Source of the DNA: an uncultured Bacillales bacterium
GTDB taxonomy: Bacteria > Bacillota_I > Bacilli_A > RFN20 > CAG-826
Direction: 5' to 3'
Assembly (NCBI GenBank): GCA_946403545.1
Contig: CAMJAG010000001.1
Coordinates: forward strand, 872-64,871
DNA: 64,000 nt
In this document: positions 31,715-53,966 of the stretch, piece after piece
Layout of the letters: each line of letters opens with the position of its first letter
Numbering within the stretch: position 1 is the first letter of the stretch
Translations under genes and position numbers: made by a program
The notes under the pieces: model-generated
What the model was told of the DNA's origin: nothing
The model's input: only the letters and a program-made list of their open reading frames with translations
The model's database searches: none

Positions 31715-31790
31715 TGGTGGATCCGACGAGGATCGAACTCGCTACCTCATCGTTGCGAACGATGCGCTCTCCCAGATGAGCTACGGACCC
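31715..31790 (-). tRNA. tRNA-Ala, anticodon CGC, with encoded CCA
   Basis: Hand-folded 76-nt cloverleaf. Acceptor GGGTCCG/CGGATCC contains the G3:U70 Ala identity pair. Anticodon stem CATCG/CGATG with loop TTCGCAA. T-loop TTCGATC. 3' end ACCA. Confidence 0.9.
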
Positions 31791-34964: not shown

Positions 34965-35068
34965 ATGTAATGCCTCTTTATTACGTAATATAAAATTATC
35001 ATATTTTTAACATTTATAGATATAACTTTATTGGTTATTAAAAGAAAAACCATGCAAATCCTGCACGG

Positions 35069-36172
35069 TTATTCATTATCTTCATTGTTTTGGCTTTTCT
35101 TTTCTTGTTCAATTTCTTGTCTGATTATGTATTTTTGTTCTTGTCTTTTATTTCCTACAAAGACAGTATTTTGAAGCACTTTTGCAAATGCATAATGACA
35201 AACCATTAAGTTAACTACATAGATTGGAATAAATAAGAATATGAAAAGAACTGTATTTAGTTCCGCTAATTGGTTGAAGAATTGGAATTCTGGTCTTCCC
35301 CAAACAAGTTCTCCCGTTCTCATAAGTGCGATTAATATAAATGGCAAGATAAGAAGAACTGGGTAATACCATTTTTTAAAAGCTTTAGATGTAATTGAAA
35401 GAATTATAAAAACGATAAATGAAGCAAATACTGATCCCATCAAGAACCAGTTAATAATTTGTTTATCTGTTCCTGGATTAGCAATGAACATCAAGCAAGC
35501 GATTGGTAACCAAGCAACTGCTTCAAAGTATGAAATCATCATTGTTCTACTTCTTTTAATGTATTCTAATTCAAATAATTTTTCTTTATTAATAAAGTTT
35601 TCGAAGAAAAGCTTTTCTTGGACAGTATCGTCTTCTCTCATTCTGCTTAAATTAGAAAGGCACTTTAAATGTGTTGAAGTTGCAAAAGCAAGAAGAACTA
35701 AGAATATTGCAATGCTTGCAAGAGGCATATACAAGAATGTGTATCCCATTATTCCAAAAGATTCGGAATCATATACAAAAACCACGTTAAAATAGGCCCA
35801 AACCGCAATTCCTATTTCATATAAAAGGAATAAACCCGTGAAAATATAGACAATAATCATCGATTTCATAAATTGATGATATTCTTGCAAGAAGTGTGTT
35901 TTGATAAAGTAAAATATTTGACCTGCTACGCAAATCATTGCGATAACAAAAGCCACTATTCTTACTGGATGCTCGAATCCAATACCTAGAACTGAGAAAA
36001 TTAATGTAACAAAAAATGATAAGCCGTAAATATTAAAAATGCTGGTAACAAAACTCTTTCTAAGCTTTTGATTTTTAATACTTTGAATTTTATCTATATT
36101 AACATAGATGTTTTTGTTATCATTATCAGGAACAATCATATAATTTCTCTCTCTTTGGCAAAAATTATACAT
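35069..36172 (-). CDS. hypothetical polytopic membrane protein
   Basis: 367 aa with about nine hydrophobic segments and a charged C-terminal tail. Confidence 0.5.
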   Translation of the reverse strand: MYNFCQRERNYMIVPDNDNKNIYVNIDKIQSIKNQKLRKSFVTSIFNIYGLSFFVTLIFSVLGIGFEHPVRIVAFVIAMICVAGQIFYFIKTHFLQEYHQFMKSMIIVYIFTGLFLLYEIGIAVWAYFNVVFVYDSESFGIMGYTFLYMPLASIAIFLVLLAFATSTHLKCLSNLSRMREDDTVQEKLFFENFINKEKLFELEYIKRSRTMMISYFEAVAWLPIACLMFIANPGTDKQIINWFLMGSVFASFIVFIILSITSKAFKKWYYPVLLILPFILIALMRTGELVWGRPEFQFFNQLAELNTVLFIFLFIPIYVVNLMVCHYAFAKVLQNTVFVGNKRQEQKYIIRQEIEQEKKSQNNEDNE

Positions 36173-36204
36173 AAAAATACATAAATATACAAATATTATT
36201 TTTA

Positions 36205-36231
36205 CAAATTAAAACCATGCTCCCAGCATGG
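36205..36231 (-). terminator. intrinsic terminator
   Basis: CCATGCT (36215-36221) pairs with AGCATGG (36225-36231). A U-run follows on the minus strand. Confidence 0.55.
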
Positions 36232-36240
36232 TCAATTTTA

Positions 36241-36631: not shown

Positions 36632-38314
36632 TTAGTTGCCTCCATGAACTGCGTCCACTGCTGCTACAATTTTTGCATCATCGTAGAAGTCATCATATTC
36701 CACTTTATAATCTGGGTCTAAACCATCCTCAATCGGAAGATATAAGTTCTTTCCGTTTTCCTTTTTAACATATCTTAATGTCATAGTAGATGAGATGGTT
36801 AATGCTGTTCCGTCCGCTAAAACGGTAGGCATAACAGCGCACATTCCACCACCAGATTGTTTGCCAATAATCTTTGCAATTCCTTGCTCTTTTACAATAG
36901 AAACCGCTAAATTTGCTGCAGAGAATGTATTTTCTCCCGCTAATATTGTCCAAGTGTAATCGTTATAAGCATCACCTTCATATTTGCCATCTTCATCAGT
37001 GTCAATTAAGAATCCTGCTCTTTCATAAGTGTTATTTAAAGTATTGTAAATAGAATAGAAAACATCATCATCTGTCATAAAGCCTAAGAATCTAATTAAG
37101 GCGGCAAGATTACCACCACCATTAAGTGATAAGTCTACAACAATATCTTTAACTTCATCATGGGCTTTAATTCTAGTCATGCAATATTGCATCAATTTAT
37201 ATGTATCATATTGCCATGCTGAAGCACTATTGAGTTGATCTTTAGTGCCTGTAACAAAGCTATCAAATGTAATAATTGCAGTATCTCCAGAGAATCTTAC
37301 AGGATTTCTTTCAGGATTAATTTCTGCAATATTTCTTTTAGCAGTTAAATCATTTTTTAAATTGAAGTATGTATTCCACTTTGTTCCTCTTCTAGCTAAC
37401 GGAACGGTTGTGGAATCATCTCTATCCATATAATAAGTTCCAAAATCCACTCTTGAGTGGAGATCGTTTAATGTTTTAAATACAAAGTCAGTTATTCCTC
37501 TATAGTTATTTGCACCAACAGGAGATGTAATTAACGCTTTTGTGTTTGCGTCAATATAATCAATAGCCTTTGTATATCCTTTAATTTCTTTTAGACCATA
37601 GAAATAATCTAATAAGAATGCTAATGAACTCAAAGTAGCGTTACTAACATCTTCAGGAATCTCAGTTCCACACATAGGAGTGGTAAGTTTAATTAAAGTC
37701 GTTGCTTGAGCATCGCTTACTTCTCCAAACGCTCCATAAAGTTTATCTCCATTAAAGAAAACATTGTAATAATTTTGACTACAGAAAAGTATATTAGCGA
37801 TCACTAAAGGCAGTAAAACCTTATTATTTTCATATTTAATATCAAATCCATAATCACTTAATTTAAAGTTAAGTTGTCTAATTTGAGAAGCGTCAGATTC
37901 ATCTTTATTTTGTTTAAAATTAGCACTATAGTCAGTGGATAAAGATGTCATTGCAATTATGTTAAAGAATTGGCTATCTCCACGAATAACATCATTTTCC
38001 CAATCAATCTCAATAGCGCCATAGATTAAGAATGACATCATCATCTTCTTTTCATTAATATCTTTTTTAATACTAATATAATCAGAAATTAAATATCCTC
38101 TTAAATCTTTAACAAACTTTGCAATATCTACATAAGGAACATTACCTCCATCAGGAAAGAATAATTTCATCCTCTTTGTAGTTATTTGAAAATCAGGTGA
38201 AAGATTTTGAAAATAATATGTCTTTGCATTTTTGTCTAATAATGAACATCCAGTAGCCGCTAGACAAGACGCTACTAGAGGTAATAATGTAAATAATTTA
38301 ATTCTCTTTTTCAT
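36632..38314 (-). CDS. lipoprotein, S41-family (tail-specific-like) peptidase
   Basis: Lipobox ATGC. S41 blocks VVDLSLNGGGN, TFSAANLA and GKQSGGG. Confidence 0.65.
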   Translation of the reverse strand: MKKRIKLFTLLPLVASCLAATGCSLLDKNAKTYYFQNLSPDFQITTKRMKLFFPDGGNVPYVDIAKFVKDLRGYLISDYISIKKDINEKKMMMSFLIYGAIEIDWENDVIRGDSQFFNIIAMTSLSTDYSANFKQNKDESDASQIRQLNFKLSDYGFDIKYENNKVLLPLVIANILFCSQNYYNVFFNGDKLYGAFGEVSDAQATTLIKLTTPMCGTEIPEDVSNATLSSLAFLLDYFYGLKEIKGYTKAIDYIDANTKALITSPVGANNYRGITDFVFKTLNDLHSRVDFGTYYMDRDDSTTVPLARRGTKWNTYFNLKNDLTAKRNIAEINPERNPVRFSGDTAIITFDSFVTGTKDQLNSASAWQYDTYKLMQYCMTRIKAHDEVKDIVVDLSLNGGGNLAALIRFLGFMTDDDVFYSIYNTLNNTYERAGFLIDTDEDGKYEGDAYNDYTWTILAGENTFSAANLAVSIVKEQGIAKIIGKQSGGGMCAVMPTVLADGTALTISSTMTLRYVKKENGKNLYLPIEDGLDPDYKVEYDDFYDDAKIVAAVDAVHGGN

Positions 38315-38408
38315 ATTGAAATTATTATACGATATCTGTATTTATTTATAAATAAGTAAGAGGACAAATCATGTCCTCACACTACTTATTGACATATATA
38401 TAAAATGA

Positions 38409-38965
38409 AAGAGCATTGGAACCCAGTGAAGTCATCTTGCTGATGGCTGGGGCCCAACCAAAAGAGAAGGATATTCGGGATACTGAATATCTAACAAGAC
38501 CTGTTTATCAGGTATTCCGGGATTAAAATACCGCTTTGGTTGGTGGCGCATAATGCTCTTCGATGTAAGTAGACACCCGAGTAGGCACTACAAGAGGCTC
38601 TGTAGCAATACATCCCACGATAAGATGTTAGTCTGAGAAACTAATATCTACGTTCTCAAAGAAAGTGTTTGGCTTGATGGTAAGCAATTACCTATAACTA
38701 CTTTGGTGGGCACTAGTAGGAGAATGCCAGCGAGTTTTGGATCTACGACAAGATAAAAAATATAGCTGAAGCTCTCTGAAAGTTGGAAGATGATGTAACT
38801 CTTCCCATGGTACGGTAGCAATACCCATTCCAGAAGTATTAGGGTCGCTCCCTCTTACTCAGCCTGGCGTGCATGTGTACGAAAAACAAATTAGAGTAAG
38901 TTATGTATGGCGAAGGTCATCAATGTACAAAAAAGGTGGATTCTTATGACTCCACCATTTTTATT
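38409..38965 (+). ncRNA. candidate large structured ncRNA (class unassigned; ROOL/GOLLD/OLE-scale)
   Basis: 684-nt gap with no ORF of 60 aa or more. Hand-counted G+C is 38-48% per 60-nt line, against about 22% in the adjacent gene. There are many nested helices, including 38409-38417/38552-38560 and 38454-38462/38535-38543. Several G-U pairs work only on the plus strand. It ends in a strong plus-strand terminator. The 5' end and the strand are inferred. Confidence 0.5.
38931..38965 (+). repeat. 35-nt direct repeat, copy 1 (terminator hairpin GGTGGA...TCCACC plus a T-run)
   Basis: AAAAGGTGGATTCTTATGACTCCACCATTTTTATT. Matches copy 2 at 33 of 35 positions. Confidence 0.85.
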
Positions 38966-38998
38966 TGTAGTATGAATGACACATGATAAAATGAATTC
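38965..38998 (+). promoter_or_regulatory. candidate promoter for a leaderless tandem-TIR mRNA
   Basis: TTGTAG (38965-38970), then 16 nt, then TGaTAAAAT with its -10 at 38987-38992, then 6 nt, then the ATG at 38999. No SD is present. Confidence 0.35.
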
Positions 38999-39829
38999 AT
39001 GAATAATGAAACAAATAAAAATGAATTAGAGAATGAGAAAGTTTATATTTTCATTTCGCATTCTCATAAAGATATAGAAAAAGTAAGAAAAATTAGAAAT
39101 TATTTAGAGAGTCTTGATTGTGAACCAATTCTTTTCTTTTTAAAAAGCAAAGATGATGAAGATGAGATAATTCAACTTATCAAAGACGAGATTGATGCTA
39201 GAGTTTGGTTTATTTATTGTAGATCTATAAATGCATCTAAATCTAAATGGGTTAATGATGAAGTAACATATGTTGAGCAAACAGGTAAAAACAACATAGT
39301 TATAGATATCGATGGATGCCTAGATGAAAATGGAGAATTAAAAAATAGCGTTAAAAATAAACTTAATGTCATTATTAACGGATTTAGAAACTTACAACAA
39401 TTGTATATTTCTTATTCACACAAAGACTCTGTTGAAGTTCTTCGTATTGTCCAGTTTTTAAAAAGATATGGTGTTGATTTGTTTTATGATGACATGACAC
39501 ATTTTGGATCAGATTGGAAACATTCTATTCATAATCAAATTGTTAAATCGCCATATTTTCTGGTTTTTTTAAGCAAACAATCCATTAATTCACATTTCAT
39601 TTATGATGAAATAAAGCTAGCACAATACTTTAATAAAGAAATAATTCCCGTAATTCTTTATAACAATATTAACGATTATTATTCAGTCATTGAATCAGAT
39701 GTTTTCCAAAAGAATTTTGCATACTTTTTAGTCTGTGAATTCGATACTTCTAGTGATGTTCAATTCAAAGTGTCCTCATTTAGACTGCTAAACACATTAT
39801 TAGAGCATTTCTTTACGGATTTTGAATAA
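38999..39829 (+). CDS. tandem double-TIR domain protein
   Basis: Two TIR-like units: VYIFISHSHKD...SKWVNDEV and LYISYSHKDS...SHFIYDEI. Each keeps the conserved Glu position. Confidence 0.7.
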   Translation: MNNETNKNELENEKVYIFISHSHKDIEKVRKIRNYLESLDCEPILFFLKSKDDEDEIIQLIKDEIDARVWFIYCRSINASKSKWVNDEVTYVEQTGKNNIVIDIDGCLDENGELKNSVKNKLNVIINGFRNLQQLYISYSHKDSVEVLRIVQFLKRYGVDLFYDDMTHFGSDWKHSIHNQIVKSPYFLVFLSKQSINSHFIYDEIKLAQYFNKEIIPVILYNNINDYYSVIESDVFQKNFAYFLVCEFDTSSDVQFKVSSFRLLNTLLEHFFTDFE

Positions 39830-39832
39830 AAG

Positions 39833-39867
39833 AAAAGGTGGATTCTCATGAGTCCACCATTTTTATT
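39833..39867. repeat. 35-nt direct repeat, copy 2 (bidirectional terminator between convergent genes)
   Basis: AAAAGGTGGATTCTCATGAGTCCACCATTTTTATT. 9-bp stem with an A-run before it and a T-run after it. Confidence 0.85.
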
Positions 39868-41083
39868 ATGTTCGAGTAACTGAGAGGCTAACACTCCAAA
39901 CATAATAGAACATACTTGATGCATTCGCCGTAGGATGGTTTAGATTTAGCATAGCTTCTTCTATAAATAATGCATCTGATTTAGGTACTTTAATTGAGAA
40001 ACTATCCAAATCCGCACCATTGTTACTTTCTAAATGTATCGGGGTTTTATATTGGTTATTGAGTATAAACGACCCATTGATCCAATTACATAACAGCAAT
40101 AATTTTCTACCATAGTTATAGATATTAATCGTATATGTAATGTATTCAGTTGAAGATTCTGCGATCCATTCTTTTAAGTTAAATGGAAGTTTGTACTTCA
40201 ATGATGCATTTGAGGAATAAGTGCTATTTATGGTTGCACTGTTATCTTCAAATGTACTTGTTACACGTAGGCCTGCATAACTCTTATTAAGATTTATATA
40301 TTTATATTCTTCTAATAATGCTTCAGTTCCTAAATAAAGTTTCATTGAAATAGGACTTATTTTTGCAGGTGCAGTTGAGATACAACCTTTTGGTCTAGAA
40401 ACAGTGAATTTAATTCCTTTTAATATCTCTTCTTTATCTAATTTGTACATTCTATTGAAGACTGTGTAGTCATCATTTGAACGGAAGGTTCCACTATCAA
40501 TTAAAGATATTGCAGTATCTAACCTATAATCAACCCAATTAAATGTGTTAATTCCTACTACACCTTCTTCTTTTTCATAGTGGCTGAATTTTATAGTCAA
40601 ATAACCAACTGATTCAGTGTGTTGGAGATAGTATTGATAGTCTTCACTAAGCTTTAATTCATATGATTTTGACTTATTAGAACAAGAGATGTCTACACTA
40701 GGAAAATTGAAGTCTATAATCTGAGCTTCATTAGTGTCCAAATAGTTTGCGTAAATGTTTTCTGGAAGTTCCACATTGTCATAAATTGCTTTGCCAGAGC
40801 GATCCACTAATTTCTTTGAATTTAAGTTTGGCTTTTCGAAACAACCCATAAAGAGTTTGTCCTTCTTCTCTGTAGGTTGATATTCGAAAGTATTTATGTA
40901 TTGTATGGTATTTACTTCACCATCGTTTGCAATAACATTAACTTCCTTCCATGGAATTGGTTGTGGCTTATAATCCTCATCTAAAATCGGACAATTTGTT
41001 TCCCCTTTCATAGAAAAGGAACATGCACTGATAGATAATAACGAGACTGCTGTTATGAGTATTAAGCTAATTTTTCTTTTCAT
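39866..41083 (-). CDS. lipoprotein, function unknown
   Basis: The ORF-track start at 41101 is a TTG inside the SD. The ATG at 41083 (MKRKISLIL...SISAC lipobox) lies 9 nt after GGAGG. Confidence 0.55.
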   Translation of the reverse strand: MKRKISLILITAVSLLSISACSFSMKGETNCPILDEDYKPQPIPWKEVNVIANDGEVNTIQYINTFEYQPTEKKDKLFMGCFEKPNLNSKKLVDRSGKAIYDNVELPENIYANYLDTNEAQIIDFNFPSVDISCSNKSKSYELKLSEDYQYYLQHTESVGYLTIKFSHYEKEEGVVGINTFNWVDYRLDTAISLIDSGTFRSNDDYTVFNRMYKLDKEEILKGIKFTVSRPKGCISTAPAKISPISMKLYLGTEALLEEYKYINLNKSYAGLRVTSTFEDNSATINSTYSSNASLKYKLPFNLKEWIAESSTEYITYTINIYNYGRKLLLLCNWINGSFILNNQYKTPIHLESNNGADLDSFSIKVPKSDALFIEEAMLNLNHPTANASSMFYYVWSVSLSVTRT

Positions 41084-41486: not shown

Positions 41487-41738
41487 CTAATTGTCAGAAA
41501 TTGATTCTGCAAGTTCTAATATTTGTACAAATGTTAAAGATTGAAGGTGTAGATACGCTTGAACAACAGCCAACTTATATTCAGTTCTATCTGTTGACCT
41601 AATAGCAATATCTCTAAACCTTCTAAATTCTACTCTTGTTTCTTGCTCTGTATCACTAAGGCATGTCATTACCATTTTATTAGTTGCTTCTAAAGTAAGT
41701 TGCCTCAAATATTTTTTCTTAGCCTCAACATCAACCAT
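41487..41738 (-). CDS. hypothetical small protein downstream of the TIR-methyltransferase gene
   Basis: 83 aa, predicted helical. Starts 8 nt after the upstream stop. Confidence 0.45.
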   Translation of the reverse strand: MVDVEAKKKYLRQLTLEATNKMVMTCLSDTEQETRVEFRRFRDIAIRSTDRTEYKLAVVQAYLHLQSLTFVQILELAESISDN

Positions 41739-41746
41739 ATAAATAC

Positions 41747-43099
41747 CTATTTCTTAAATCCTACACAAACAAAGCGGTTAACTGCGTACCAAAAATCATT
41801 TCTAGAGAAACGATATTGGAGTTGCGTTAACAAATCTTCCATTTCATTGAACTCTGCTTTAGTTTGCTCATTTTCGTTTGCGATTAATTGAGCTTTAAAA
41901 TAATTCAATCTATAAGCAAAGCTTACTTTATAAAGACCTAATTTCTCTTCATAAGACATATGAGATGTTTCTGTAACAGTGCAATGCATTTTAACTTTGT
42001 TAAATCCTTCATGGACTAACCAAGAATAAAGTTTTCTACCATTGTTTCTATCAGACATTCCTTCAAGAGAATAAGATTTCTTTAAGACTTTTTCTATAAG
42101 CTCATCATCTCCATAAGAAATCTTACTGCCATCATCACTACCTCTAACAATAATCATTCCGCCTTTATTCATAAGAGCCTTTAAATTCTCTAATGCTTTT
42201 TCAGGATTTGTTAGATGATGGAGGACTAAGAAACAAGAAACAACATCAAAGCCTTTAATGCCCTTTTGCTTCATTATTCCCTGCATTTCCTCCATAAATG
42301 TTGGACTTTCAATATTTAATTGATAGAAAGAGAACTTACTATTTTTATTATTTTTATTTGCTTGTTCAATAGCACTTTCACTAATATCGATTCCCACTAC
42401 TTTAGTGTATTTTGCTTTTCTAAAAGCTTGTCTAGTTACATATCCTTGAGCGCAACCAACATCTAGAACTGTGTAATTGTTTTTGTCTAAATACATGTCT
42501 AAAATGCGTTGGTTTTCATCATCATATCTAGATCCTTGGCTTTTTAATCTTTCTGATTCATTAGTGAAATCAAATTCATAAATAGACCATCTTCCTTTGT
42601 AATCAATGCAATCTTTTGGTCTTGGTCTAGAAACTAAAAACCTATTAAACAATCTCTTTTGATAATCATTTACATCAAAAACATCACCAATTGGTTCACT
42701 ATGACAATCTCTAATTGCGTCAATTTCCTTTGGTAACTTTTTTGGATAATTAACTTTATCTAAGAATAAAACTAGAATATTTAATCCTTCAGTTTTTAAA
42801 GCGGTTTCTATTTCTTGTCTAACCCAGTCATCTTTTTTAAATATTCTCTTAGAAAATGTATCTGGAGTTACAAGAAGAATAAAGTCTTTGGAATTATGGA
42901 TTGCATTAGTTAACTGAGGTGGAAACATACCACCTTGAATTGATACCTTATCAAAGAAACTTAGATAACCATTATCCATCAAATTTCTATATAAAAGATA
43001 CGTTGGATATAATCCATCACTTCTTCTATATGAAATGAAAACATCATATATAAAATCTTTTCTCTTAATTTGAGTGTTTTTATTAATTTCTTCAGGCAT
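41747..43099 (-). CDS. TIR domain fused to a class I SAM-dependent methyltransferase
   Basis: N-terminal TIR (DVFISYRRSDG...DDWVRQEIE). Central methyltransferase motif I VLDVGCAQG, then FDVVSCFLVLHHL and MIIVRGSDDG. SD AGAGGA. Confidence 0.7.
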   Translation of the reverse strand: MPEEINKNTQIKRKDFIYDVFISYRRSDGLYPTYLLYRNLMDNGYLSFFDKVSIQGGMFPPQLTNAIHNSKDFILLVTPDTFSKRIFKKDDWVRQEIETALKTEGLNILVLFLDKVNYPKKLPKEIDAIRDCHSEPIGDVFDVNDYQKRLFNRFLVSRPRPKDCIDYKGRWSIYEFDFTNESERLKSQGSRYDDENQRILDMYLDKNNYTVLDVGCAQGYVTRQAFRKAKYTKVVGIDISESAIEQANKNNKNSKFSFYQLNIESPTFMEEMQGIMKQKGIKGFDVVSCFLVLHHLTNPEKALENLKALMNKGGMIIVRGSDDGSKISYGDDELIEKVLKKSYSLEGMSDRNNGRKLYSWLVHEGFNKVKMHCTVTETSHMSYEEKLGLYKVSFAYRLNYFKAQLIANENEQTKAEFNEMEDLLTQLQYRFSRNDFWYAVNRFVCVGFKK

Positions 43100-43198
43100 A
43101 TTCAGTCCTCTTATTTATTAATTTTATAATAAAATAAAGAAAAATACTTTAATATGATAATATAAGAGTGAAGTATATTTACGTGAGGTATTAAACAT

Positions 43199-45580
43199 AT
43201 GTATCCTGAATTACTTGCTATTTTCATTATTACTGGAGTTGTTGAACTCGTTTTAATAGGTGTATTTTTTTATAACCTAATCAGATATAGATATCTTGGT
43301 AATAAATATTTTTACGTAACTGTAAGTGTATTAGTTCTTTTGATGTATTCAACATTCGTCAATAGATCATCAGATCTTTCTATTTCTATGTTTGGAAACA
43401 TAGTGTTTGACACTATTGCGGCAGCAGTAGGTAAAGTTGATACTGAAAAGATTTCTTGGCTGTTTTTACCGGGCGAATGGAATAAATGGCTAGTAATTTT
43501 CTACTTTATCGCCTCATATACAACATTCGCATTCTTATCCATCACAGTTATTCTTAACTTTGCAAAACTCTTCTTAAATGCATTTATTTTCTATAAAAGA
43601 CGAATTATAAATGGAGCAAATGTGTACTATTTGTTCACAGATTCTAGAAATGAAACAGTAATTCCTTTAGCCACTAAACTATTAGATGAAACAAAAGGTC
43701 GTAAAAACTCAGTTAAAGTTTTCGTTTCTAGAGCATCTTTAAAAACTCAAGAAGGTAATGAATTTAGAGATATGTTAGTGGGCTTAGGCATTCCTGTTCA
43801 AGCTGAAAAATTCTCATACAGGATGGCTAGAAAGATCTTTAATTCTAGATACTTCAAACTACATCTTTTTGATAAGCAACAATCGTTTATTTACTTACTT
43901 TTCTCAAATGACGAAACCACTACAAAAGTGGCAACTGATTTCAAAACAGCGATTCAAAAGAATCGTAAGTTTAAAAAAATTAACGACTTTGTAACTCTTT
44001 TAAAGGAAACAAAAGACAAAGATAAATTAGAGAAATTAAAAGAGAACTTTAATGAGAAAGAATATGATTTATTACAAAAAATCCAAATCTTTGTCACTTA
44101 TCAAGAAACAGATTTAGATATTCTCCATAACTTCTCTGGAGAGACATTGCATATCATGAATACTCTTTCTAAGTACGACATGATTGCTTCTAGATTTGTA
44201 TTTGATAATCCAATCTCTCAATTAGTGGACTTAAACAACATCAAACTTAAAGAAGACAATAAACATTTAAATGTTACACTCCTTGGTTTTGGTGTTATTG
44301 ATAGAGCAATATTTGAAAGAATGACATTCTCTTATCAACTTTATGGAGATAATATTAACAAAGTTAATTACCATGTTTTAGATAGAGATGCTGATTCTTT
44401 AATTAAACCTTATGTAAACGAATATACAGATAGAAATAACAGTGTTTATCTATACTCTATCGACTCCGCTTTCGATGGAGAAGATTTAAGACACTACGAA
44501 ACAATTGATAGATATATCTCATCATTGCAAAACGATCCAAACCGTTTCCAAGATGATGGTTTTGAAATCTTTGTTATTTCAGTCATAAACTCAAATAACG
44601 ATTTAAATATCGCGCTTAACTTAAGAAGAGCTATCTTAAAATACTTCAATGATAGATGTGAACAAGTTGTTATTTACGTCAGAGTTGCAGAAAGACTCAT
44701 TGGAGAACAATTCAGAGGTTCAAATCTTTCATACACATACGAAACTCTCTCTCATATTCACGAAGTAAAAGACTTCAATAAGAAATCTGATGTAGAGAAA
44801 GAAGCATACTTCAACTCATTCAAGGACGAGGAAGAAAGAAAAGCAGCAGAGAAAAGATTAATTAAAGATTTAAAAGCACCTATCATTCTCTTTGGTAATG
44901 ATGCAATTATGTCCACATATCTTGCTAGAGAACATAAATACTTCATGGGATTCGCTGAAAACGCTTGGAAATCCTACCAATTAGAACAAGCTTATAACAA
45001 TTATTCTGAAACTCAACTTGATAGATTATGGTTAAGACAAAATAAACAAGAAGTTAAAAATAACACTGATTATGTTCTTTCACTTAGAACAAAGCTAAAC
45101 TTATTTGGCTACAAACTAAATCTAAATAAACAAGAAAACCAATACTTAATGGTTCCTGGTGATGATGTTTCAATTCTTACTTCAGGTGAAAATGAAGAAA
45201 CATTCCTTGAAAGAACAAAACTTAAAGATGAAACTGGTGATGTTGCAAAAGTTCTTAAGATTGCTGATATGGAACATAACCGCTGGTTACAATCCAATAA
45301 CCAAAGATTTAGATATTTATCTAAAGATTACACAAAGGTCGAGGATCAAGAACTATTTGGAGTGAATAAATACACCAATGAAAAAGAAATCACAAGGAAA
45401 TATAACGACAATACACAACACATTTGTATGGTCACTAATGAGGGATTAAGAGACTTCTACAATTATGTTGGAAAGAAAAATCCTGAATATAAAGATGTCG
45501 CTTTAAAACTTGTGTACACAAACGATATTGTTCAGTTAAGAACGATAATCAAAAATGGAACAGAACAAAAGAATAAATAA
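43199..45580 (+). CDS. large membrane protein with Rossmann-like (GxGxxD) segment and weak C-terminal RyR-like signature
   Basis: Four or five N-terminal TM segments. VTLLGFGVIDRAI. C-terminal IADMEHNRWLQSN. SD GAGG. Confidence 0.5.
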   Translation: MYPELLAIFIITGVVELVLIGVFFYNLIRYRYLGNKYFYVTVSVLVLLMYSTFVNRSSDLSISMFGNIVFDTIAAAVGKVDTEKISWLFLPGEWNKWLVIFYFIASYTTFAFLSITVILNFAKLFLNAFIFYKRRIINGANVYYLFTDSRNETVIPLATKLLDETKGRKNSVKVFVSRASLKTQEGNEFRDMLVGLGIPVQAEKFSYRMARKIFNSRYFKLHLFDKQQSFIYLLFSNDETTTKVATDFKTAIQKNRKFKKINDFVTLLKETKDKDKLEKLKENFNEKEYDLLQKIQIFVTYQETDLDILHNFSGETLHIMNTLSKYDMIASRFVFDNPISQLVDLNNIKLKEDNKHLNVTLLGFGVIDRAIFERMTFSYQLYGDNINKVNYHVLDRDADSLIKPYVNEYTDRNNSVYLYSIDSAFDGEDLRHYETIDRYISSLQNDPNRFQDDGFEIFVISVINSNNDLNIALNLRRAILKYFNDRCEQVVIYVRVAERLIGEQFRGSNLSYTYETLSHIHEVKDFNKKSDVEKEAYFNSFKDEEERKAAEKRLIKDLKAPIILFGNDAIMSTYLAREHKYFMGFAENAWKSYQLEQAYNNYSETQLDRLWLRQNKQEVKNNTDYVLSLRTKLNLFGYKLNLNKQENQYLMVPGDDVSILTSGENEETFLERTKLKDETGDVAKVLKIADMEHNRWLQSNNQRFRYLSKDYTKVEDQELFGVNKYTNEKEITRKYNDNTQHICMVTNEGLRDFYNYVGKKNPEYKDVALKLVYTNDIVQLRTIIKNGTEQKNK

Positions 45581-45588
45581 CCTATGAA

Positions 45589-45614
45589 AAGCCATAGAAC
45601 TGGCTTTTCTTTTT
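45589..45614 (+). terminator. intrinsic terminator after the 793-aa gene
   Basis: AAGCCA (45589-45594) pairs with TGGCTT (45601-45606), followed by TTCTTTTT. Confidence 0.6.
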
Positions 45615-46621: not shown

Positions 46622-48586
46622 ATGAAAAGAAGACCATATTCTGAACAAGTATCTCAAAAATACATTGATCAAAATCTTGAAAACACTCAAATAATGTCCT
46701 TCCTTGAATATAAAGGTAAAGGCTACGCTAAATACTTATTTGATGATTTAGCAAAAACTGATATCAAAGGATTCCCATTCTCTAGTGATTTTGTATCTTC
46801 TAAAGGGAAATCATATTCCTTTATTGATTTTGAAAATCTAAGTGATAAAGAAAAAGCGGATTGTAAACTTAGATTCTTCTATTTACCTAATTATCATGAG
46901 TTATATATCGGTACTACTGGTTCTGGTAAAACTACAGGATGTATTGAACCACAAATCAGAGCGATATCCACTCAAAAGAATAAAGCTAACTTATTTATTA
47001 CTGACCCTAAAGGTGAGTTATTTGAACATAATGGTAAATACTTAAAAGACCAAGGTTATAACGTATTTGTTCTTAACTTTAGAAACTTAGGTAGAACTCA
47101 TACATGGAATCCACTTAAAGAAATGTATGAAAAACAAATGGAATCTCTCACTATTGGAAAGAATAGTAAGAAATGTAATTGTCCAGTAGATAAGTCACTA
47201 GCGTTAATGTCTGAAAAGAGTAAATATCAAGGCACATATATTGCTTATAAACACATGGCATTTGCAACACAAGAAGACTTTGATAAATACGTGAATATTG
47301 AAACTTATTTAAATAAATCCAAAGTTTCTTCATTAGTTAACCAATTATGTGACTGTATCTTTAGTGAAGATAAATCCACTACAGATAGAACTTGGAGTGA
47401 TGGTGCTAGAGGATTATTCCATGGTATTTTATTGTCCATGTTAGAAGAAGCTGTTTTACCAGGAAGTAAGTTTAGCGAACAACATATGACATTAAAGACA
47501 GTTAACGATATCTTCAATTTAATTAGAGAAGGTAGCGAAACTCGCGATTCATATGGAGATCACTACACTAACGAAGAAATGCATGAGAAGATGGTAGACT
47601 TCTTGCATGGTAAATCATCTATTTGTATGAGCAAGTTAAATAATATTATTAAGACTGCTCAAACAACGAGAAAAGGGTTTTTATCAACATTCTTATCCAC
47701 TACTGAAAAATGGATGCAAGGTCACATCTATCAATTGACAAGTCATACATCTATTTCTCTAGAAGATAATGAACATCCTTGGGCGGTATTTGTATCCACT
47801 AGAGACTATGATAAATCAGATAATGTTATCGCTGGTTTATTCATTGACTGGGTATATAGACAATCTCTACAAGCTGTTGAAGAGAAACGTAAACTCGGTT
47901 TAGAACCTAGACCAATTCACTTCTTATTAGATGAATTCGCTAACATTCCAAGAATCCCTGACTTTGATAATAAGATTGCTACTGCTAGAAGTAGAAATAT
48001 GTGGTTCCACTTATTCGTTCAATCTTATGATCAATTAGATTTAATCTATGGAGAAGAAACAGCCTCTATTATCGTAGATAACTGTAACCAACAAACATTC
48101 TTAGGTTCTCAATCTCAAGAAACTAAAGAAAGATTCTCTAGAGAATGTGGTAAAAAGACTGTTACATCCTTAGAAGGTGTTATTCATGGTGAAGTTAACG
48201 ATGTTGTAGAAATCCCAGTTGTGCCTATCACAAGTCTAGATCAAATCAAACCTGGTGAAATGTACACTAAACGTATTTATTCTCCAATATTAAGATGTAG
48301 CTTTATCAGAAGCTATCAATGCGCTCAACAAGGTATCTTTAAAAACTTCTGGAATAATAAAGCGGAAGAAGAACTTATTCCACTTAACTATGTTATTCCT
48401 GATGATTTAGAACATTCTTATTTACCAGTATTAAGCGCTATTGAAGTAAGAAGATTATGTCCACCTAGACCAAGAAATCCTCGTAGTAGAGTTCAATACG
48501 AAGATGAAGACATGGAAGCAGAAGATCCTGAAGACTTTGAAGACTTCTTACATGAAGTTCAACTTAAGATGAAAGGAAAGAAGTAG
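46622..48586 (+). CDS. soluble VirD4/TraG/TraD-family (type IV coupling protein-like) P-loop ATPase
   Basis: Walker A GTTGSGKTTG. FITDPKGE. Walker B-like HFLLDEFANIP. Also FHLFVQSYDQL. No N-terminal TM segments. Acidic C-terminal tail. Confidence 0.7.
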   Translation: MKRRPYSEQVSQKYIDQNLENTQIMSFLEYKGKGYAKYLFDDLAKTDIKGFPFSSDFVSSKGKSYSFIDFENLSDKEKADCKLRFFYLPNYHELYIGTTGSGKTTGCIEPQIRAISTQKNKANLFITDPKGELFEHNGKYLKDQGYNVFVLNFRNLGRTHTWNPLKEMYEKQMESLTIGKNSKKCNCPVDKSLALMSEKSKYQGTYIAYKHMAFATQEDFDKYVNIETYLNKSKVSSLVNQLCDCIFSEDKSTTDRTWSDGARGLFHGILLSMLEEAVLPGSKFSEQHMTLKTVNDIFNLIREGSETRDSYGDHYTNEEMHEKMVDFLHGKSSICMSKLNNIIKTAQTTRKGFLSTFLSTTEKWMQGHIYQLTSHTSISLEDNEHPWAVFVSTRDYDKSDNVIAGLFIDWVYRQSLQAVEEKRKLGLEPRPIHFLLDEFANIPRIPDFDNKIATARSRNMWFHLFVQSYDQLDLIYGEETASIIVDNCNQQTFLGSQSQETKERFSRECGKKTVTSLEGVIHGEVNDVVEIPVVPITSLDQIKPGEMYTKRIYSPILRCSFIRSYQCAQQGIFKNFWNNKAEEELIPLNYVIPDDLEHSYLPVLSAIEVRRLCPPRPRNPRSRVQYEDEDMEAEDPEDFEDFLHEVQLKMKGKK

Positions 48587-48587
48587 T

Positions 48588-49133
48588 ATGGCTAACGATA
48601 ATTTTGAAGAATTATATAAACAAGGAATTATAGTCATCACTACTGGTATAGAAGATATGGATGTTACTAGTAACATCATCTTATCTCTTCTTAATTGGAA
48701 CAGAATTGATCCAAAGAAAGAATTACAACTCTATATCTCTTCAGTATCTGGAGACTACCTAAATGTCCTTTCTATTTATGACGCTATCCAATCAATTAGT
48801 AATCCAATTTCAGGATATTGTATTGGTTTAGTTGGTAGTTGCGCTGCACTACTTTTAGCGGCGTGTAACAAAGGTAAACGCTACATTTTAGAGCATAGTC
48901 AAATTGCTTTAAGAGAGATTTCTGGCATTATTCCTGGTGGAAGTAAACAACAAACAGAAATCGAAATTCTCGCAAACGAATTAGCGTCTCAAAGAGAAAC
49001 ATTTGAATCTCTTCTTTCAAAACATACAGGTCAATCCGTTGAAGAAATACACCACCTTTGCTATGAAAACACTTATTTAACTCCTGAAGAAGCTATTAAA
49101 AAAGGCTTCGTAGATAAGATTGTGAGGAAATAA
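48588..49133 (+). CDS. ClpP-like (S14) subunit, predicted catalytically inactive
   Basis: Aligns by eye with ClpP. Ser is kept (GLVGSCAA), but His is replaced (IALREI versus IHQP) and Asp is replaced (YENTYL versus ERDRFL). Confidence 0.6.
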   Translation: MANDNFEELYKQGIIVITTGIEDMDVTSNIILSLLNWNRIDPKKELQLYISSVSGDYLNVLSIYDAIQSISNPISGYCIGLVGSCAALLLAACNKGKRYILEHSQIALREISGIIPGGSKQQTEIEILANELASQRETFESLLSKHTGQSVEEIHHLCYENTYLTPEEAIKKGFVDKIVRK

Positions 49134-49135
49134 TT

Positions 49136-49648
49136 ATGGATAACAGAATTATTACTTTAAATGGTGAAATCAACGAAGGAAGCGCGATGAAAGTTATTCT
49201 TTCATTACTTCAAATGGATGCTGAAAATAGAAAACAACCAATATATCTATATATCAACTCTCCTGGTGGAAATATTGTTCATGGATTAGCAATATATGAT
49301 GTTATGAATAACATATCCGCTCCGGTATATACAGTATGTAATGGCATGGCAGCATCGATGGGTAGTTTCTTACTCTCTTGTGGTGCTAAAGGACATAGAT
49401 ATTGTTTAAAACACTCTCGTATTCTTATCCATCAACCACTTGTCTATAACAACTATGGAAGAATGATTGAAGAAAGCGAAGCTCAACAAATCGCCGCTAA
49501 TTTAAGAAAAGATAGAGATAAATTAGAACAAATCATGGCAGACAATTCTGGTAAAGACATTAAAGTCTTCCATAAGGATTGTGAAAGAGACCATTGGATG
49601 AGCGCTCAAGAAGCTCTAGACTATGGTCTAATAGATAAGATTATCTAA
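49136..49648 (+). CDS. ClpP-like (S14) serine protease subunit, catalytic triad intact, N-terminal axial region missing
   Basis: YINSPGG, GMAASMG (Ser), ILIHQP (His) and CERDHWMSAQEA (Asp). It starts at the position equivalent to RVIFLTG of canonical ClpP. Confidence 0.7.
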   Translation: MDNRIITLNGEINEGSAMKVILSLLQMDAENRKQPIYLYINSPGGNIVHGLAIYDVMNNISAPVYTVCNGMAASMGSFLLSCGAKGHRYCLKHSRILIHQPLVYNNYGRMIEESEAQQIAANLRKDRDKLEQIMADNSGKDIKVFHKDCERDHWMSAQEALDYGLIDKII

Positions 49649-53284: not shown

Positions 53285-53966
53285 GTACTTTTTCCTCTAA
53301 AGCAATGTTATAACCCGCTTTCTTGCCTTCATTTAATGTTTCTTCATTTGCTAAATGCATAAGAGTAATTTTCTTTCTCTCTTCCATATTGAAGGCGTTA
53401 TTTAATACTGAAATATGAGTATGTATCATCGCATTAAGAGAAGTTGTAACTTCATGATACATTTCATCTATTTTTCCTGATTTAAGTTCTCTAACTGCTC
53501 TATCAAGTAGTTCAGATGTATCTCCTGAATAGTAGAAATTAATTTCTTTAGAATATACAAAATATGCATAACTACCAGGAATATGTGGAACTTCAACAGG
53601 TTCCACTTTTAAATCTTTGATTAAAGAGTAGTCATTATATATTTCAAAATCAAAATCTAAACCAGTTAATTGGAGTAGTTTTTTAAGATTATCTTTTAAA
53701 GGATAGAAGACTTTTACCGTCTTTTTTGAGAAGAAATGAATCCAATATAAGAATGGTTCAAGGCTTCCAATATGATCACTATGAAGATGGGTAATTAAAA
53801 CAACAATTTCATCAACATCATCTAAAAGATGAAGTGCTAAAATCTTGTCACAAATTTTCTCGCCCATATCAAAAATATACAATTTGCCATTTTGTTTAAA
53901 ATAAGCACAATTGTTATTTGTGAAATAGTTAAAAGCGGCTCCTACACCTAAAAATTTTAAATACAT
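53277..53966 (-). CDS. metallo-beta-lactamase-fold hydrolase
   Basis: HxHxDH motif as ITHLHSDHIG. Overlaps the TIR-STAND start by 8 nt. Confidence 0.75.
   Translation of the reverse strand: MYLKFLGVGAAFNYFTNNNCAYFKQNGKLYIFDMGEKICDKILALHLLDDVDEIVVLITHLHSDHIGSLEPFLYWIHFFSKKTVKVFYPLKDNLKKLLQLTGLDFDFEIYNDYSLIKDLKVEPVEVPHIPGSYAYFVYSKEINFYYSGDTSELLDRAVRELKSGKIDEMYHEVTTSLNAMIHTHISVLNNAFNMEERKKITLMHLANEETLNEGKKAGYNIALEEKVHG

What the first reader, a model, noticed from the sequence alone, without database searches (positions are those of the whole stretch)
38931..39867. Near-identical 35-nt terminator hairpins as direct repeats exactly bracketing the tandem-TIR gene
Seen in sequence: AAAAGGTGGATTCT[T/C]ATGA[C/G]TCCACCATTTTTATT occurs at 38931-38965 and 39833-39867, with 33 of 35 positions identical. 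The two copies are 902 bp apart. The interval holds only the 276-aa double-TIR ORF (38999-39829) and its short upstream region. None of the other terminators I inspected in the window resembles this hairpin. Inference: the gene plus one terminator copy looks like a roughly 0.9-kb cassette. It may have been inserted at, or duplicated from, a pre-existing terminator, for example by hairpin-targeted integration or recombination between terminators. The repeat would also allow precise loss of the gene by recombination.
Basis: seen in the sequence. Interest (0 to 1): 0.6.

Follow-up and report, generated by a model that had tools for sequence, protein, structure and literature searches.

The report
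Strain-variable TIR gene between duplicated terminators
A 902-base unit, one tandem-TIR gene plus a second copy of the terminator hairpin that ends the neighbouring ROOL RNA gene, is present in some strains of an uncultured Bacilli bacterium and cleanly absent in others, but nothing shows how it was inserted.

Summary
The 35-mer occurs at 38931-38965 and 39833-39867, with 33 of 35 positions identical. No other terminator-like hairpin in the window resembles it.

Copy 1 is the intrinsic terminator of a ROOL RNA gene (38398-38938). It also serves, on the other strand, the convergent lipoprotein gene.

Three related metagenomic strains (L014, L015, L016) carry ROOL, one hairpin and the lipoprotein gene, with no TIR gene. 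Four further contigs (L017, L008, L018, L019), like the window, carry the TIR gene. In L017 both copies are 35/35 identical to each other and to the L015/L016 empty-site hairpin. So the repeat is a duplicate of the resident terminator, not an imported one.

The 867-bp insert is one promoter-like element plus one ORF. It has lower GC than the window (26.6% versus 32.8%). It encodes no recombinase and has no terminal inverted repeats. Its divergence between strains matches that of the flanking gene, and filled and empty alleles do not form clades. This is therefore an old polymorphism in a recombining population.

The hairpin is not a dispersed element. How the insertion arose is unresolved. The closest analogues are phage PeSL cassettes and att-flanked remnants. 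Interest is moderate.

The parts
38398..38938 (+). ROOL RNA gene. It is full length. Its last model positions overlap the A tract and the first stem bases of hairpin copy 1.
   Evidence: Rfam RF03087, 187.6 bits (gathering score 99.1), model positions 1-574 of 574. There are 0-3 differences in 519 nt among five strains.
38931..38965 (+). Hairpin copy 1, with the stem-loop at 38935-38956. It is the intrinsic terminator of ROOL. In this strain the stem has a T-C mismatch (GAC) where the empty sites and L017 have GAG.
38966..38998 (+). The 33-nt 5' part of the insert. It has an extended -10-like element, TGaTAAAAT, at 38984-38992, 6 nt before the ATG. This implies a leaderless or nearly leaderless mRNA. 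There is no Shine-Dalgarno sequence.
   Evidence: Read from the sequence and conserved in L017. Promoter function is inferred, not tested. The consensus scan did not list it, because the -35 matches only 3 of 6 positions.
38999..39829 (+). Tandem-TIR ORF of 276 aa, the only gene in the insert.
   Evidence: Pfam TIR_2 in two stretches, E = 2e-26, plus ThsB_TIR. PADLOC ThsB-type hits. Glu88 and Glu204 are invariant in 27 homologues. AlphaFold model with pLDDT 87.4, best PDB matches to SARM1, SPARTA and AbTir TIR domains. GC of the insert is 26.6% against 32.8% for the window.
39833..39867 (+). Hairpin copy 2, with the stem-loop at 39837-39858. It is a bidirectional terminator for the TIR ORF (+ strand) and the convergent lipoprotein gene (- strand).
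   Evidence: In L017 and L008 this copy equals the L015/L016 empty-site hairpin. In L018 and L019 it is a 31-nt variant with a changed apex.
39866..41083 (-). Convergent lipoprotein gene of 405 aa (lipobox ISAC). It forms the right flank of the site and is present in all eight alleles.
   Evidence: No Pfam family matches it.
36632..38314 (-). S41-peptidase lipoprotein gene. It lies to the left of ROOL and is divergently oriented.
   Evidence: Pfam Peptidase_S41. The same gene is seen in the empty allele L015.
38956..39023 (+). A 13-nt perfect inverted repeat. One arm (38956-38968) is the T tract of copy 1 plus TGT. The other arm (39011-39023) is codons 5-8 of the TIR ORF. In a ROOL read-through transcript this helix would enclose the start codon.
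   Evidence: the 121-nt RNA fold has -24.1 kcal/mol, z = -3.4. The repeat is conserved in L017. Its significance is unknown.

Best explanation
WHAT IT IS. The two hairpins are two copies of one resident bidirectional intrinsic terminator. That terminator ends the ROOL RNA gene on the + strand and the convergent lipoprotein gene on the - strand. Between the copies lies an 867-bp insert made of a promoter-like element and a single tandem-TIR ORF. Insert plus one hairpin form a 902-bp unit that is present in some strains of an uncultured Bacilli population and precisely absent in others.

HOW IT MOST LIKELY WORKS.
(i) Origin (inferred). A low-GC promoter-plus-ORF fragment was inserted once at the terminator by a process that duplicated the 35-bp target. 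The likely processes need no recombinase: a replication template switch that left after the T tract and re-entered at the A tract, or repair of a break staggered around the palindrome. As a result ROOL, the new gene and the lipoprotein gene each kept a terminator.
(ii) Maintenance (partly shown). The insertion is old. The cassette has diverged between strains as much as the neighbouring gene has.
(iii) Turnover (inferred). The indel segregates in a recombining population. It is exchanged through homology in ROOL and the lipoprotein gene, and it is lost precisely by recombination or slippage between the two 35-bp copies.

The cargo is a two-domain TIR protein in which both putative catalytic glutamates are conserved. 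It is probably an NAD-consuming or signal-producing defence-type protein. Its position next to ROOL appears incidental.
For: SHOWN:
- Eight alleles were recovered. The filled alleles are the window, L017, L008, L018 and L019. The empty alleles are L014, L015 and L016, each with one hairpin and the same flanks.
- Deleting 902 nt from the window gives colinearity with the empty alleles.
- In L017 both copies equal the L015/L016 empty-site hairpin, 35 of 35. The two mismatches in the window are therefore later point changes.
- The repeat ends sharply at 35 nt.
- The cassette differs between filled strains by 18/867 to 19/417 positions (2.1-4.6%). The lipoprotein gene differs by 16-55 of 1157-1260 positions (1.4-4.4%).
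- L018 and L019 (filled) are closer to L014 (empty, 26 differences) than to the other filled strains (41-45 differences). The SNP pattern is mosaic.
- The hairpin is unique to this locus.
- No integrase or transposase was found in the ORFs of at least 100 aa between 21.8 and 64 kb. The insert has no terminal inverted repeats.
- Insert GC is 26.6% against 32.8% for the window.
- Homologues of the TIR protein (at most 53% identity) lie in unrelated contexts without ROOL and without such hairpins.
- Phage ROOL genes lie in tRNA arrays.
Against: - The direction of change cannot be rooted. More distant relatives (lipoprotein 45-48% identical) have no ROOL at this site, so there is no outgroup. The empty alleles may be ancestral or may be deletions.
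- No donor sequence is known, so microhomology at the junctions cannot be examined.
- A 35-bp target duplication is long for break repair. Its exact coincidence with a functional terminator could equally reflect a site-specific enzyme that recognises the palindrome.
- Two of the three empty alleles (L014, L015) come from Logan assemblies. These use k = 31 (my own knowledge), and a perfect 35-nt repeat could be mis-traversed at that k. L016, from a JGI assembly, is an independent empty allele. L014 and L015 also carry private hairpin variants.
- Only 64 kb of this genome could be inspected for recombinases or for further copies.
Confidence: 0.6

Rival explanations
1. Site-specific integration with the hairpin as an att site. 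A circular molecule carrying the TIR gene and one copy of the 35-mer recombined with the 3' end of the ROOL gene, as islands do at tRNA and tmRNA genes. The integrase would be encoded elsewhere, or the 867-bp insert would be the last remnant of a decayed element (CIME-like, flanked by attL and attR without integration genes).
For: The geometry fits. There is a direct repeat of typical att-core length, and the empty site has exactly one copy. The repeat covers the last bases of an RNA gene plus a dyad-symmetric sequence. CIMEs and accretion at the 3' ends of RNA genes are documented (PMC5704250). A TraG/VirD4-like gene lies 7 kb away, so conjugative-element debris is present.
Against: No integrase was found in the ORFs of at least 100 aa scanned across 42 kb. 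The insert is only a promoter plus one ORF, starting 33 nt before the ATG and ending 3 nt after the stop codon. That would need an implausibly neat internal deletion. None of the eight alleles has any other element at the site. The hairpin is absent from IMG/VR and from GTDB representatives. The apex of the hairpin is replaced in L018 and L019 while the base and the A/T tracts are kept. That pattern is what terminator constraint predicts, not constraint on a crossover core.
Confidence: 0.15
2. PeSL-type modular shuffling. Terminator-plus-promoter composites act as portable homology, and homologous recombination between such composites excises and inserts single-gene mini-circles, as in T4-like phages.
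For: Hairpin copy 1 is followed directly by a promoter-like element, giving a terminator/promoter composite. A single ORF lies between two copies, and closely related genomes differ by exactly this unit. PeSL-bounded indels and mini-circles are documented in PMC2839356 and PMC4122927.
Against: PeSLs are a dispersed multi-copy family within one genome. Here there are two copies in 64 kb and none elsewhere in any collection searched. The promoter-like part is not repeated after copy 2. Thirty-five bp is near the lower limit for RecA-dependent exchange (my own knowledge). This is a cellular chromosome, not a phage hyperplastic region.
Confidence: 0.1
3. Integrase-type staggered attack on the palindrome. 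A Cas1-Cas2, casposase or similar enzyme joined the two 3' ends of an 867-bp fragment to opposite strands at the two borders of the 35-bp palindromic terminator. Gap filling then duplicated the target, exactly as a CRISPR repeat is duplicated when a spacer is acquired.
For: The outcome is geometrically the same as repeat duplication. The 35-bp palindromic unit falls within the usual CRISPR repeat length range, has AT-rich flanks, is duplicated precisely and has sharp borders. In vitro, E. coli Cas1-Cas2 integrates next to cruciform-prone inverted repeats when no CRISPR is present, as summarised in PMC5389526.
Against: No cas genes or CRISPR array are in the window. An 867-bp 'spacer' is more than 20 times the normal length. 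The 35-mer is not centred on the dyad (15 nt to the left and 20 nt to the right). This is a single event with no recurrence.
Confidence: 0.05
4. There is no real cassette. Either two similar terminators arose independently, or the presence/absence difference is an assembly artefact.
For: Terminators in this genome share a loose consensus of A and T tracts, and weak similarities do occur between unrelated terminators. Logan contigs are built at k = 31 (my own knowledge).
Against: No chance matches were expected. The pair scores 58 against 30 for the next best. The copies are 35/35 identical in L017. Filled and empty alleles each come from several independent assemblies made with different assemblers, including JGI and k141 MEGAHIT contigs.
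Confidence: 0.02

Closest known systems
PeSL (promoter-early stem-loop) regulatory cassettes of T4-like phages (Arbiol et al. 2010, PMC2839356; Comeau et al. 2014, PMC4122927)
   Same: A terminator stem-loop is followed by a promoter. Single non-essential ORFs are bracketed by two such motifs as direct repeats. Close relatives differ by exactly ORF plus one motif. The repeat allows precise loss.
   Different: PeSLs are a dispersed family with many copies per phage genome. Here there are only two copies, both derived from one resident terminator. The locus is chromosomal, the promoter-like part is not repeated, and no mini-circle evidence exists.
Genomic islands and CIMEs integrated at the 3' end of tRNA or tmRNA genes (attL/attR direct repeats; review PMC5704250)
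   Same: The direct repeat includes the 3' end of a structured RNA gene. The RNA gene stays intact. The empty site has one copy. There is no integrase inside the element, as in a CIME.
   Different: The target is a ROOL gene and its terminator, not a tRNA. The element is 867 bp with one gene. No integrase was seen within 42 kb. No other occupant of the site was seen.
Phage 'morons' (Hendrix and colleagues; recalled from my own knowledge)
   Same: An autonomous unit of promoter, one ORF and a terminator lies between two resident transcription units. It has lower GC than its surroundings. It carries an accessory or defence-type function.
   Different: A moron brings its own terminator. Here the terminator is a duplicate of the resident one. 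The context is not a prophage.
Integron gene cassettes (attC)
   Same: One promoterless or short-leader ORF is followed by an imperfect palindrome, and cassettes can be excised precisely.
   Different: The hairpin is a 22-nt stem-loop, far shorter than an attC (57-141 nt). It has no R''/L''-L'/R' architecture. There is no IntI, no array, and two copies only.
CRISPR repeat duplication on spacer acquisition, and casposon target-site duplication
   Same: A palindromic unit of about 35 bp is duplicated precisely on either side of inserted DNA.
   Different: The insert is 867 bp and encodes a protein. There is no array and there are no cas genes in the window.
ThsB-type and other bacterial TIR proteins (Thoeris, SPARTA, AbTir)
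   Same: TIR fold, conserved putative catalytic Glu, and location in a variable region beside other TIR genes.
   Different: Two TIR domains lie in one 276-aa chain with no other domain. No ThsA-like partner is among the neighbouring genes scanned. The whole indel is this one gene.

Membership tests
Rho-independent (intrinsic) terminator | A G+C-rich stem-loop followed directly by a T tract, located at the 3' end of a transcription unit. | tested here: met
   9-pair stem with 4-5 GC pairs, a 4-nt loop, and ATTTTTATT downstream. Copy 1 abuts the end of the ROOL model. Copy 2 lies 7 nt after the TIR stop codon. An A tract upstream makes both copies usable from the - strand.
Rho-independent (intrinsic) terminator | Transcripts actually end there. 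| not testable with these tools
   This needs Term-seq, 3' RACE or a reporter assay.
ROOL RNA (Rfam RF03087) | A covariance-model score above the curated gathering score over the full model. | tested here: met
   187.6 bits against 99.1, positions 1-574 of 574. This is lower than the phage ROOLs, which score 215-363 bits.
PeSL-type terminator/promoter cassette | A composite of terminator stem-loop and promoter bracketing single ORFs, with indels between close relatives bounded by the motif. | tested here: met
   Hairpin followed by TGaTAAAAT. The 902-bp indel is bounded by the hairpin. Promoter activity is inferred only.
PeSL-type terminator/promoter cassette | Many dispersed copies of the motif in one genome. 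| tested here: not met
   Two copies in 64 kb. In JGI metagenomes that contain this organism, only this locus is hit. The whole genome was not available.
PeSL-type terminator/promoter cassette | Circular excision products (mini-circles). | not testable with these tools
   No circle junction appears among the two JGI contigs that carry the motif. Reads could not be searched.
Integron cassette / attC | An attC of 57-141 nt with paired R and L boxes and extrahelical bases, plus IntI or an array of attC sites. | tested here: not met
   The repeat is 35 nt with a 22-nt stem-loop. No tyrosine recombinase is in the ORFs scanned. There are only two copies.
Transposon or IS with target-site duplication | A transposase gene or terminal inverted repeats inside the direct repeats. 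| tested here: not met
   The insert holds only the TIR ORF. No terminal inverted repeats lie at 38966 and 39832.
att-flanked integrative element / CIME | [quoted passage not shown] | tested here: met
   The repeat overlaps the last 8 positions of the ROOL model and its terminator. The empty alleles have one copy.
att-flanked integrative element / CIME | A cognate integrase, either resident or on a related intact element found at the same site in other genomes. | tested here: not met
   None in the ORFs between 21.8 and 64 kb. None of the eight alleles has another occupant. The hairpin is absent from IMG/VR and GTDB representatives. The rest of the genome was not seen.
CRISPR array | At least three regularly spaced repeats with short spacers, and cas genes. 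| tested here: not met
   Two copies separated by 867 bp of coding sequence. No cas gene is among the ORFs scanned.
TIR-domain protein (Pfam PF13676 TIR_2) | A profile match above the gathering score, the TIR fold and a conserved catalytic Glu. | tested here: met
   93.2 bits against 28, in two stretches. Model pLDDT 87.4 with SARM1, SPARTA and AbTir TIR matches. Glu88 and Glu204 are invariant. Enzyme activity was not tested.
Thoeris (ThsA + ThsB) | A ThsB-type TIR protein encoded next to a ThsA effector (SIR2 or Macro with SLOG). | tested here: not met
   ThsB-type PADLOC hits with E down to 1e-14. No ThsA model hit any of the seven neighbouring proteins, and the indel comprises the TIR gene alone.

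The most novel reading that the evidence does not exclude
Intrinsic terminators, as palindromes flanked by A and T tracts, may be preferred landing sites for a mechanism that inserts minimal 'promoter plus ORF' defence genes and duplicates the terminator as it does so. That mechanism could be an integrase acting in trans, such as a Cas1-like or att-type enzyme, or a template switch provoked by the hairpin. Every transcription unit then keeps a terminator, and the new gene becomes precisely removable. This would be a chromosomal counterpart of phage PeSL cassettes and a general route for single-gene turnover in defence islands.
Probability: 0.12. Interest if true: 0.7.

Novelty: new variant of a known kind. 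Interest (0 to 1): 0.42.

Why it matters
Single-gene defence cargo usually appears in genomes with no trace of how it arrived. Here both the filled site and the exact empty site are in hand, and the junctions are clean. An 867-bp promoter-plus-ORF insert is bracketed by a 35-bp duplication of the resident terminator, and there is no mobile-element gene.

This makes the mechanism of one such acquisition or loss directly testable, through excision circles, recA dependence and integrase searches. It also gives a concrete search image for finding more cases: adjacent near-identical terminators bracketing one gene.

It shows in addition that a chromosomal ROOL gene is almost invariant among strains whose neighbouring genes differ by 2-4%. 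That is useful for work on ROOL function. No functional link between ROOL and the TIR gene is supported.

Tried and rejected
- GTDB representative genomes. The hairpin pattern gave 0 hits and the S41-peptidase protein gave 0 relatives. The organism is not represented, so a genome-wide copy count was not possible.
- Exact look-up of the window's TIR protein and of its 411-aa lipoprotein ORF was not on record. P0113 was likewise not on record. The contig holding P0001 gave no DNA by that route, but it was recovered later as L017.
- IMG/VR. The hairpin is absent and so are relatives of the TIR protein. PLSDB plasmids and INPHARED phages contain only distant single-TIR hits. No vector or donor was identified.
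- Recurrence test. Other double-TIR loci (L001, L002-L007) have no flanking hairpin repeats and no ROOL.
- A possible second case. The 367-aa ORF at 35069-36172 is absent from L015 and lies between two terminators that share GCATGGTTTT. However, that pair does not stand out from the background similarity among terminators and the junctions are not clean. I do not claim it as a second example.
- Extended homology to the left of the repeat, suggested by a MAFFT alignment, is not significant.
- ROOL-TIR functional link. Phage ROOLs lie in tRNA arrays with no TIR gene nearby. ROOL is present and unchanged in the empty alleles. I rejected this link as unsupported.
- One literature query failed because a term was too short. 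A general query on terminator duplication found nothing relevant.
Full report
OBSERVATION

The 35-mer AAAAGGTGGATTCT[T/C]ATGA[C/G]TCCACCATTTTTATT is at 38931-38965 and 39833-39867. The two copies match at 33 of 35 positions and start 902 bp apart, and no such match is expected by chance. Each copy is a 9-pair, 4-nt-loop hairpin with an A tract before it and a T tract after it. On the + strand the free energies are -13.9 and -17.2 kcal/mol. On the - strand each copy also folds and is followed by a T tract, so both are bidirectional intrinsic-terminator-like sites.

Between the copies lie 33 nt, one 276-aa ORF (38999-39829) and 3 nt. The ORF has two TIR_2 matches. The similarity stops sharply at the ends of the 35-mer. 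No other hairpin in the window resembles it. The stem motif occurs only twice. Among 53 terminator-like hairpins this pair scores 58, against 30 for the next best pair.

WHAT THE HAIRPIN BELONGS TO

The upstream 'ncRNA' is a full-length ROOL RNA (RF03087, 38398-38938, 187.6 bits). The 3' strand of its closing helix is the A tract of copy 1, and the model ends inside the stem. Copy 1 is therefore the ROOL terminator.

On the other side, a 405-aa lipoprotein gene (39866-41083, - strand) converges on copy 2. To the left of ROOL lies a divergently oriented S41-peptidase lipoprotein gene. The window comes from a 74,349-bp contig held by NCBI and ENA. Its nearest named relative is a 'Bacilli bacterium' MAG, 76% identical in phosphoglucomutase. 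The organism is absent from the GTDB species representatives, as far as my two probes can tell.

THE EMPTY SITE EXISTS

The 90%-identity cluster of the lipoprotein has 15 members. The cluster of the TIR protein has only 4. Fetching contigs for cluster members and scanning JGI metagenomes for the hairpin gave eight alleles.

- Filled (TIR present): the window; L017 (JAEEGL010124932.1, both copies present); L008, L018 and L019 (copy 2 and part of the TIR gene).
- Empty: L015, with lipoprotein, one hairpin, ROOL and S41 peptidase; L014; L016 (JGI Ga0247611_10076084).

In the empty alleles the ROOL 3' end runs into a single hairpin, which is followed directly by ATGTTCGAGTAAC..., the right flank of copy 2 in the window. 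Removing 902 nt from the window gives colinearity with L015 and L016, leaving 8-9 substitutions or indels in about 435 nt.

A caveat applies. L014 and L015 are Logan contigs. Logan assembles at k = 31 (my own knowledge), and a perfect 35-nt repeat could in principle be mis-traversed at that k. L016 is independent of this problem, and L014 and L015 carry private hairpin variants (an A5 tract, a TTAG loop).

THE REPEAT IS THE RESIDENT TERMINATOR

In L017 both copies are 35/35 identical to each other and to the empty-site hairpin of L015 and L016. The two mismatches in the window are thus later point changes. One weakens the stem of copy 1 (T-C in place of T-G). The other lies in the loop of copy 2. 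In L018 and L019 the apex of copy 2 is replaced (GGTGGATTAAATTCCACC), while the basal stem and the tracts are kept. That is the pattern expected for a terminator under selection rather than for a recombination core.

AGE AND POPULATION BEHAVIOUR

Among filled strains the 867-bp insert differs at 18/867 positions (window against L017) and at up to 19/417 (window against L018), which is 2.1-4.6%. The lipoprotein gene differs at 16-55 of 1157-1260 positions. The insert is therefore at least as old as the split of these strains.

Filled and empty alleles do not form clades. L018 and L019 (filled) are nearest to L014 (empty). The 103 variable sites are mosaic. This is a long-standing polymorphism in a recombining population. 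It requires either repeated loss or gain, or transfer of the indel by flanking homology.

ROOL itself shows 0-3 differences in 519 nt, far fewer than its neighbours.

THE CARGO

The protein is a tandem TIR. Its family (87 hits, at most 53% identity outside this species) has a strongly conserved N-terminal TIR and a more variable C-terminal TIR. Glu88 and Glu204 are invariant. The AlphaFold model (pLDDT 87.4) shows two TIR folds, and its best PDB matches are SARM1, SPARTA and AbTir TIR domains. PADLOC gives ThsB-type hits, but no ThsA-like neighbour was found.

Homologues lie in unrelated contexts. One is in a defence island with AAA_15, Fic, RloB and Abi_2 genes. Others are wedged at the end of a sugar-biosynthesis operon. 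None has a ROOL gene or flanking hairpin repeats. None occurs in IMG/VR, PLSDB or INPHARED apart from distant single-TIR hits.

The insert's GC is 26.6% against 32.8% for the window. An extended -10-like TGaTAAAAT element lies 6 nt before the ATG, with no Shine-Dalgarno sequence. This suggests an autonomous, leaderless transcription unit, though that is inferred.

MECHANISM

Shown: the indel, its exact borders, the identity of the repeat with the resident terminator, its age, and its mosaic distribution.

Not shown: how the first insertion happened.

Evidence against an enzyme-guided process:
- No integrase or transposase is among the ORFs of at least 100 aa from 21.8 to 64 kb.
- The insert has no terminal inverted repeats.
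- The site has no other occupant in any of the eight alleles.
- The hairpin has no other copy anywhere I could search.

My preferred account, at about 0.6 for the whole chain, has three parts. First, a single recombinase-independent insertion duplicated the 35-bp terminator, by a template switch or by staggered-break repair around the palindrome. Second, the indel was later exchanged through the ROOL and lipoprotein homology. Third, it was lost precisely through the 35-bp repeats.

The rivals are:
- att-type site-specific integration at the 3' end of the ROOL gene, with the integrase acting in trans or the element decayed to a CIME-like remnant (0.15; PMC5704250);
- PeSL-like exchange of terminator/promoter cassettes (0.10; PMC2839356, PMC4122927);
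- off-target attack by a Cas1-type integrase on a palindrome, whose geometry is identical to CRISPR repeat duplication (0.05; PMC5389526).

ROOL LINK

Phage ROOLs recovered from IMG/VR lie in tRNA arrays, as the literature describes, and have no TIR gene nearby (PMC5737381, PMC12286853). ROOL is intact and unchanged in the empty alleles. The adjacency is best read as incidental. The gap between two convergent transcription units is a harmless place to insert a gene.

One detail is unexplained. The T tract of copy 1 plus TGT is perfectly complementary over 13 nt to codons 5-8 of the TIR ORF. In a read-through transcript this helix would enclose the start codon.

VERDICT

The specific idea of hairpin-targeted integration is neither supported nor excluded. 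This is a clean, well-bounded example of single-gene turnover. Its junction is unusual: a 35-bp duplication of an intrinsic terminator with no mobile-element gene. The closest known kinds are PeSL cassettes and att-flanked remnants, but it is a member of neither. Interest is moderate.

Noticed in passing
window 41747-43099 (-), 50438-53284 (-), 53277-53966 (-): There are two more TIR genes within 15 kb. One is a TIR plus SAM-methyltransferase fusion of 450 aa. The other is a TIR plus NPHP3_N/STAND NTPase of 948 aa, and it overlaps a metallo-beta-lactamase-fold ORF with a sub-threshold Apyc1-like match. The window thus carries three different TIR architectures.
   Followed up: partly
window 38398-38930; L015, L016, L017, L014: ROOL is almost invariant among strains (0-3 differences in 519 nt), while the adjacent lipoprotein gene and the TIR cassette differ by 1.4-4.6%. 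This points to strong purifying selection on a chromosomal ROOL that is not in a tRNA array. Its bit score (187.6) is well below those of the phage ROOLs (215-363).
   Followed up: partly
window 38956-38968 and 39011-39023; 38975-39004 and 39005-39034: A 13-nt perfect inverted repeat joins the T tract of hairpin copy 1 to codons 5-8 of the TIR ORF. The predicted helix encloses the start codon (z = -3.4). Separately, a 30-nt tandem repeat at 73% identity spans the promoter-like leader and the first codons. The meaning of both is unknown.
   Followed up: partly
window 35087-36237, compared with L015 811-820: This is a second single-gene indel. The 367-aa multi-pass membrane ORF (35069-36172, -) with one terminator is absent from L015. 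The two terminators around it (35048-35070 and 36213-36233) share ACC[A/G]TGC...GCATGGTTTT. However, the junctions are not clean and the similarity is not above background.
   Followed up: partly
L018 5062-5079; L019 2346-2363: In two filled strains hairpin copy 2 is a 31-nt variant with a replaced apex (GGTGGATTAAATTCCACC). The basal stem and the A/T tracts are unchanged.
   Followed up: yes
L018 1-3800, compared with window 41490-45600: In L018 the TIR-methyltransferase gene and its neighbour are replaced by other ORFs of 650, 107 and 249 aa. Only weak similarity remains (72-86%; gene list). The region to the right of the lipoprotein and HTH genes is therefore also strain-variable.
   Followed up: no
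L016 1-560 in the window's orientation (that is, L016 2880-3439), compared with window about 37400-38400: The part of the S41-peptidase gene nearest ROOL, which encodes its N-terminal end, is very different in L016 (146 mismatches in 555 aligned nt, plus large gaps). ROOL next to it is identical.
   Followed up: no
window 46622-49648: A TraG/VirD4-type coupling-protein gene is followed by two adjacent ClpP-like ORFs of 181 and 170 aa. The other ORFs scanned showed no conjugation or integration genes. This may be debris from a conjugative element.
   Followed up: no
L002 7983-8804 (and likewise L003-L007): A 46%-identical double-TIR homologue is wedged between an epimerase gene and a convergent alpha-amylase gene, with only 17 nt before it and 2 nt after it. 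Two serine-recombinase genes lie 1.2 kb away. This is another very tight, ORF-only placement of the gene family.
   Followed up: partly
window 31718-31790 (-): A single tRNA gene lies 6.6 kb from ROOL. ROOL genes are usually described as lying near tRNA genes (PMC5737381), but here the two are separated by seven protein-coding ORFs.
   Followed up: no
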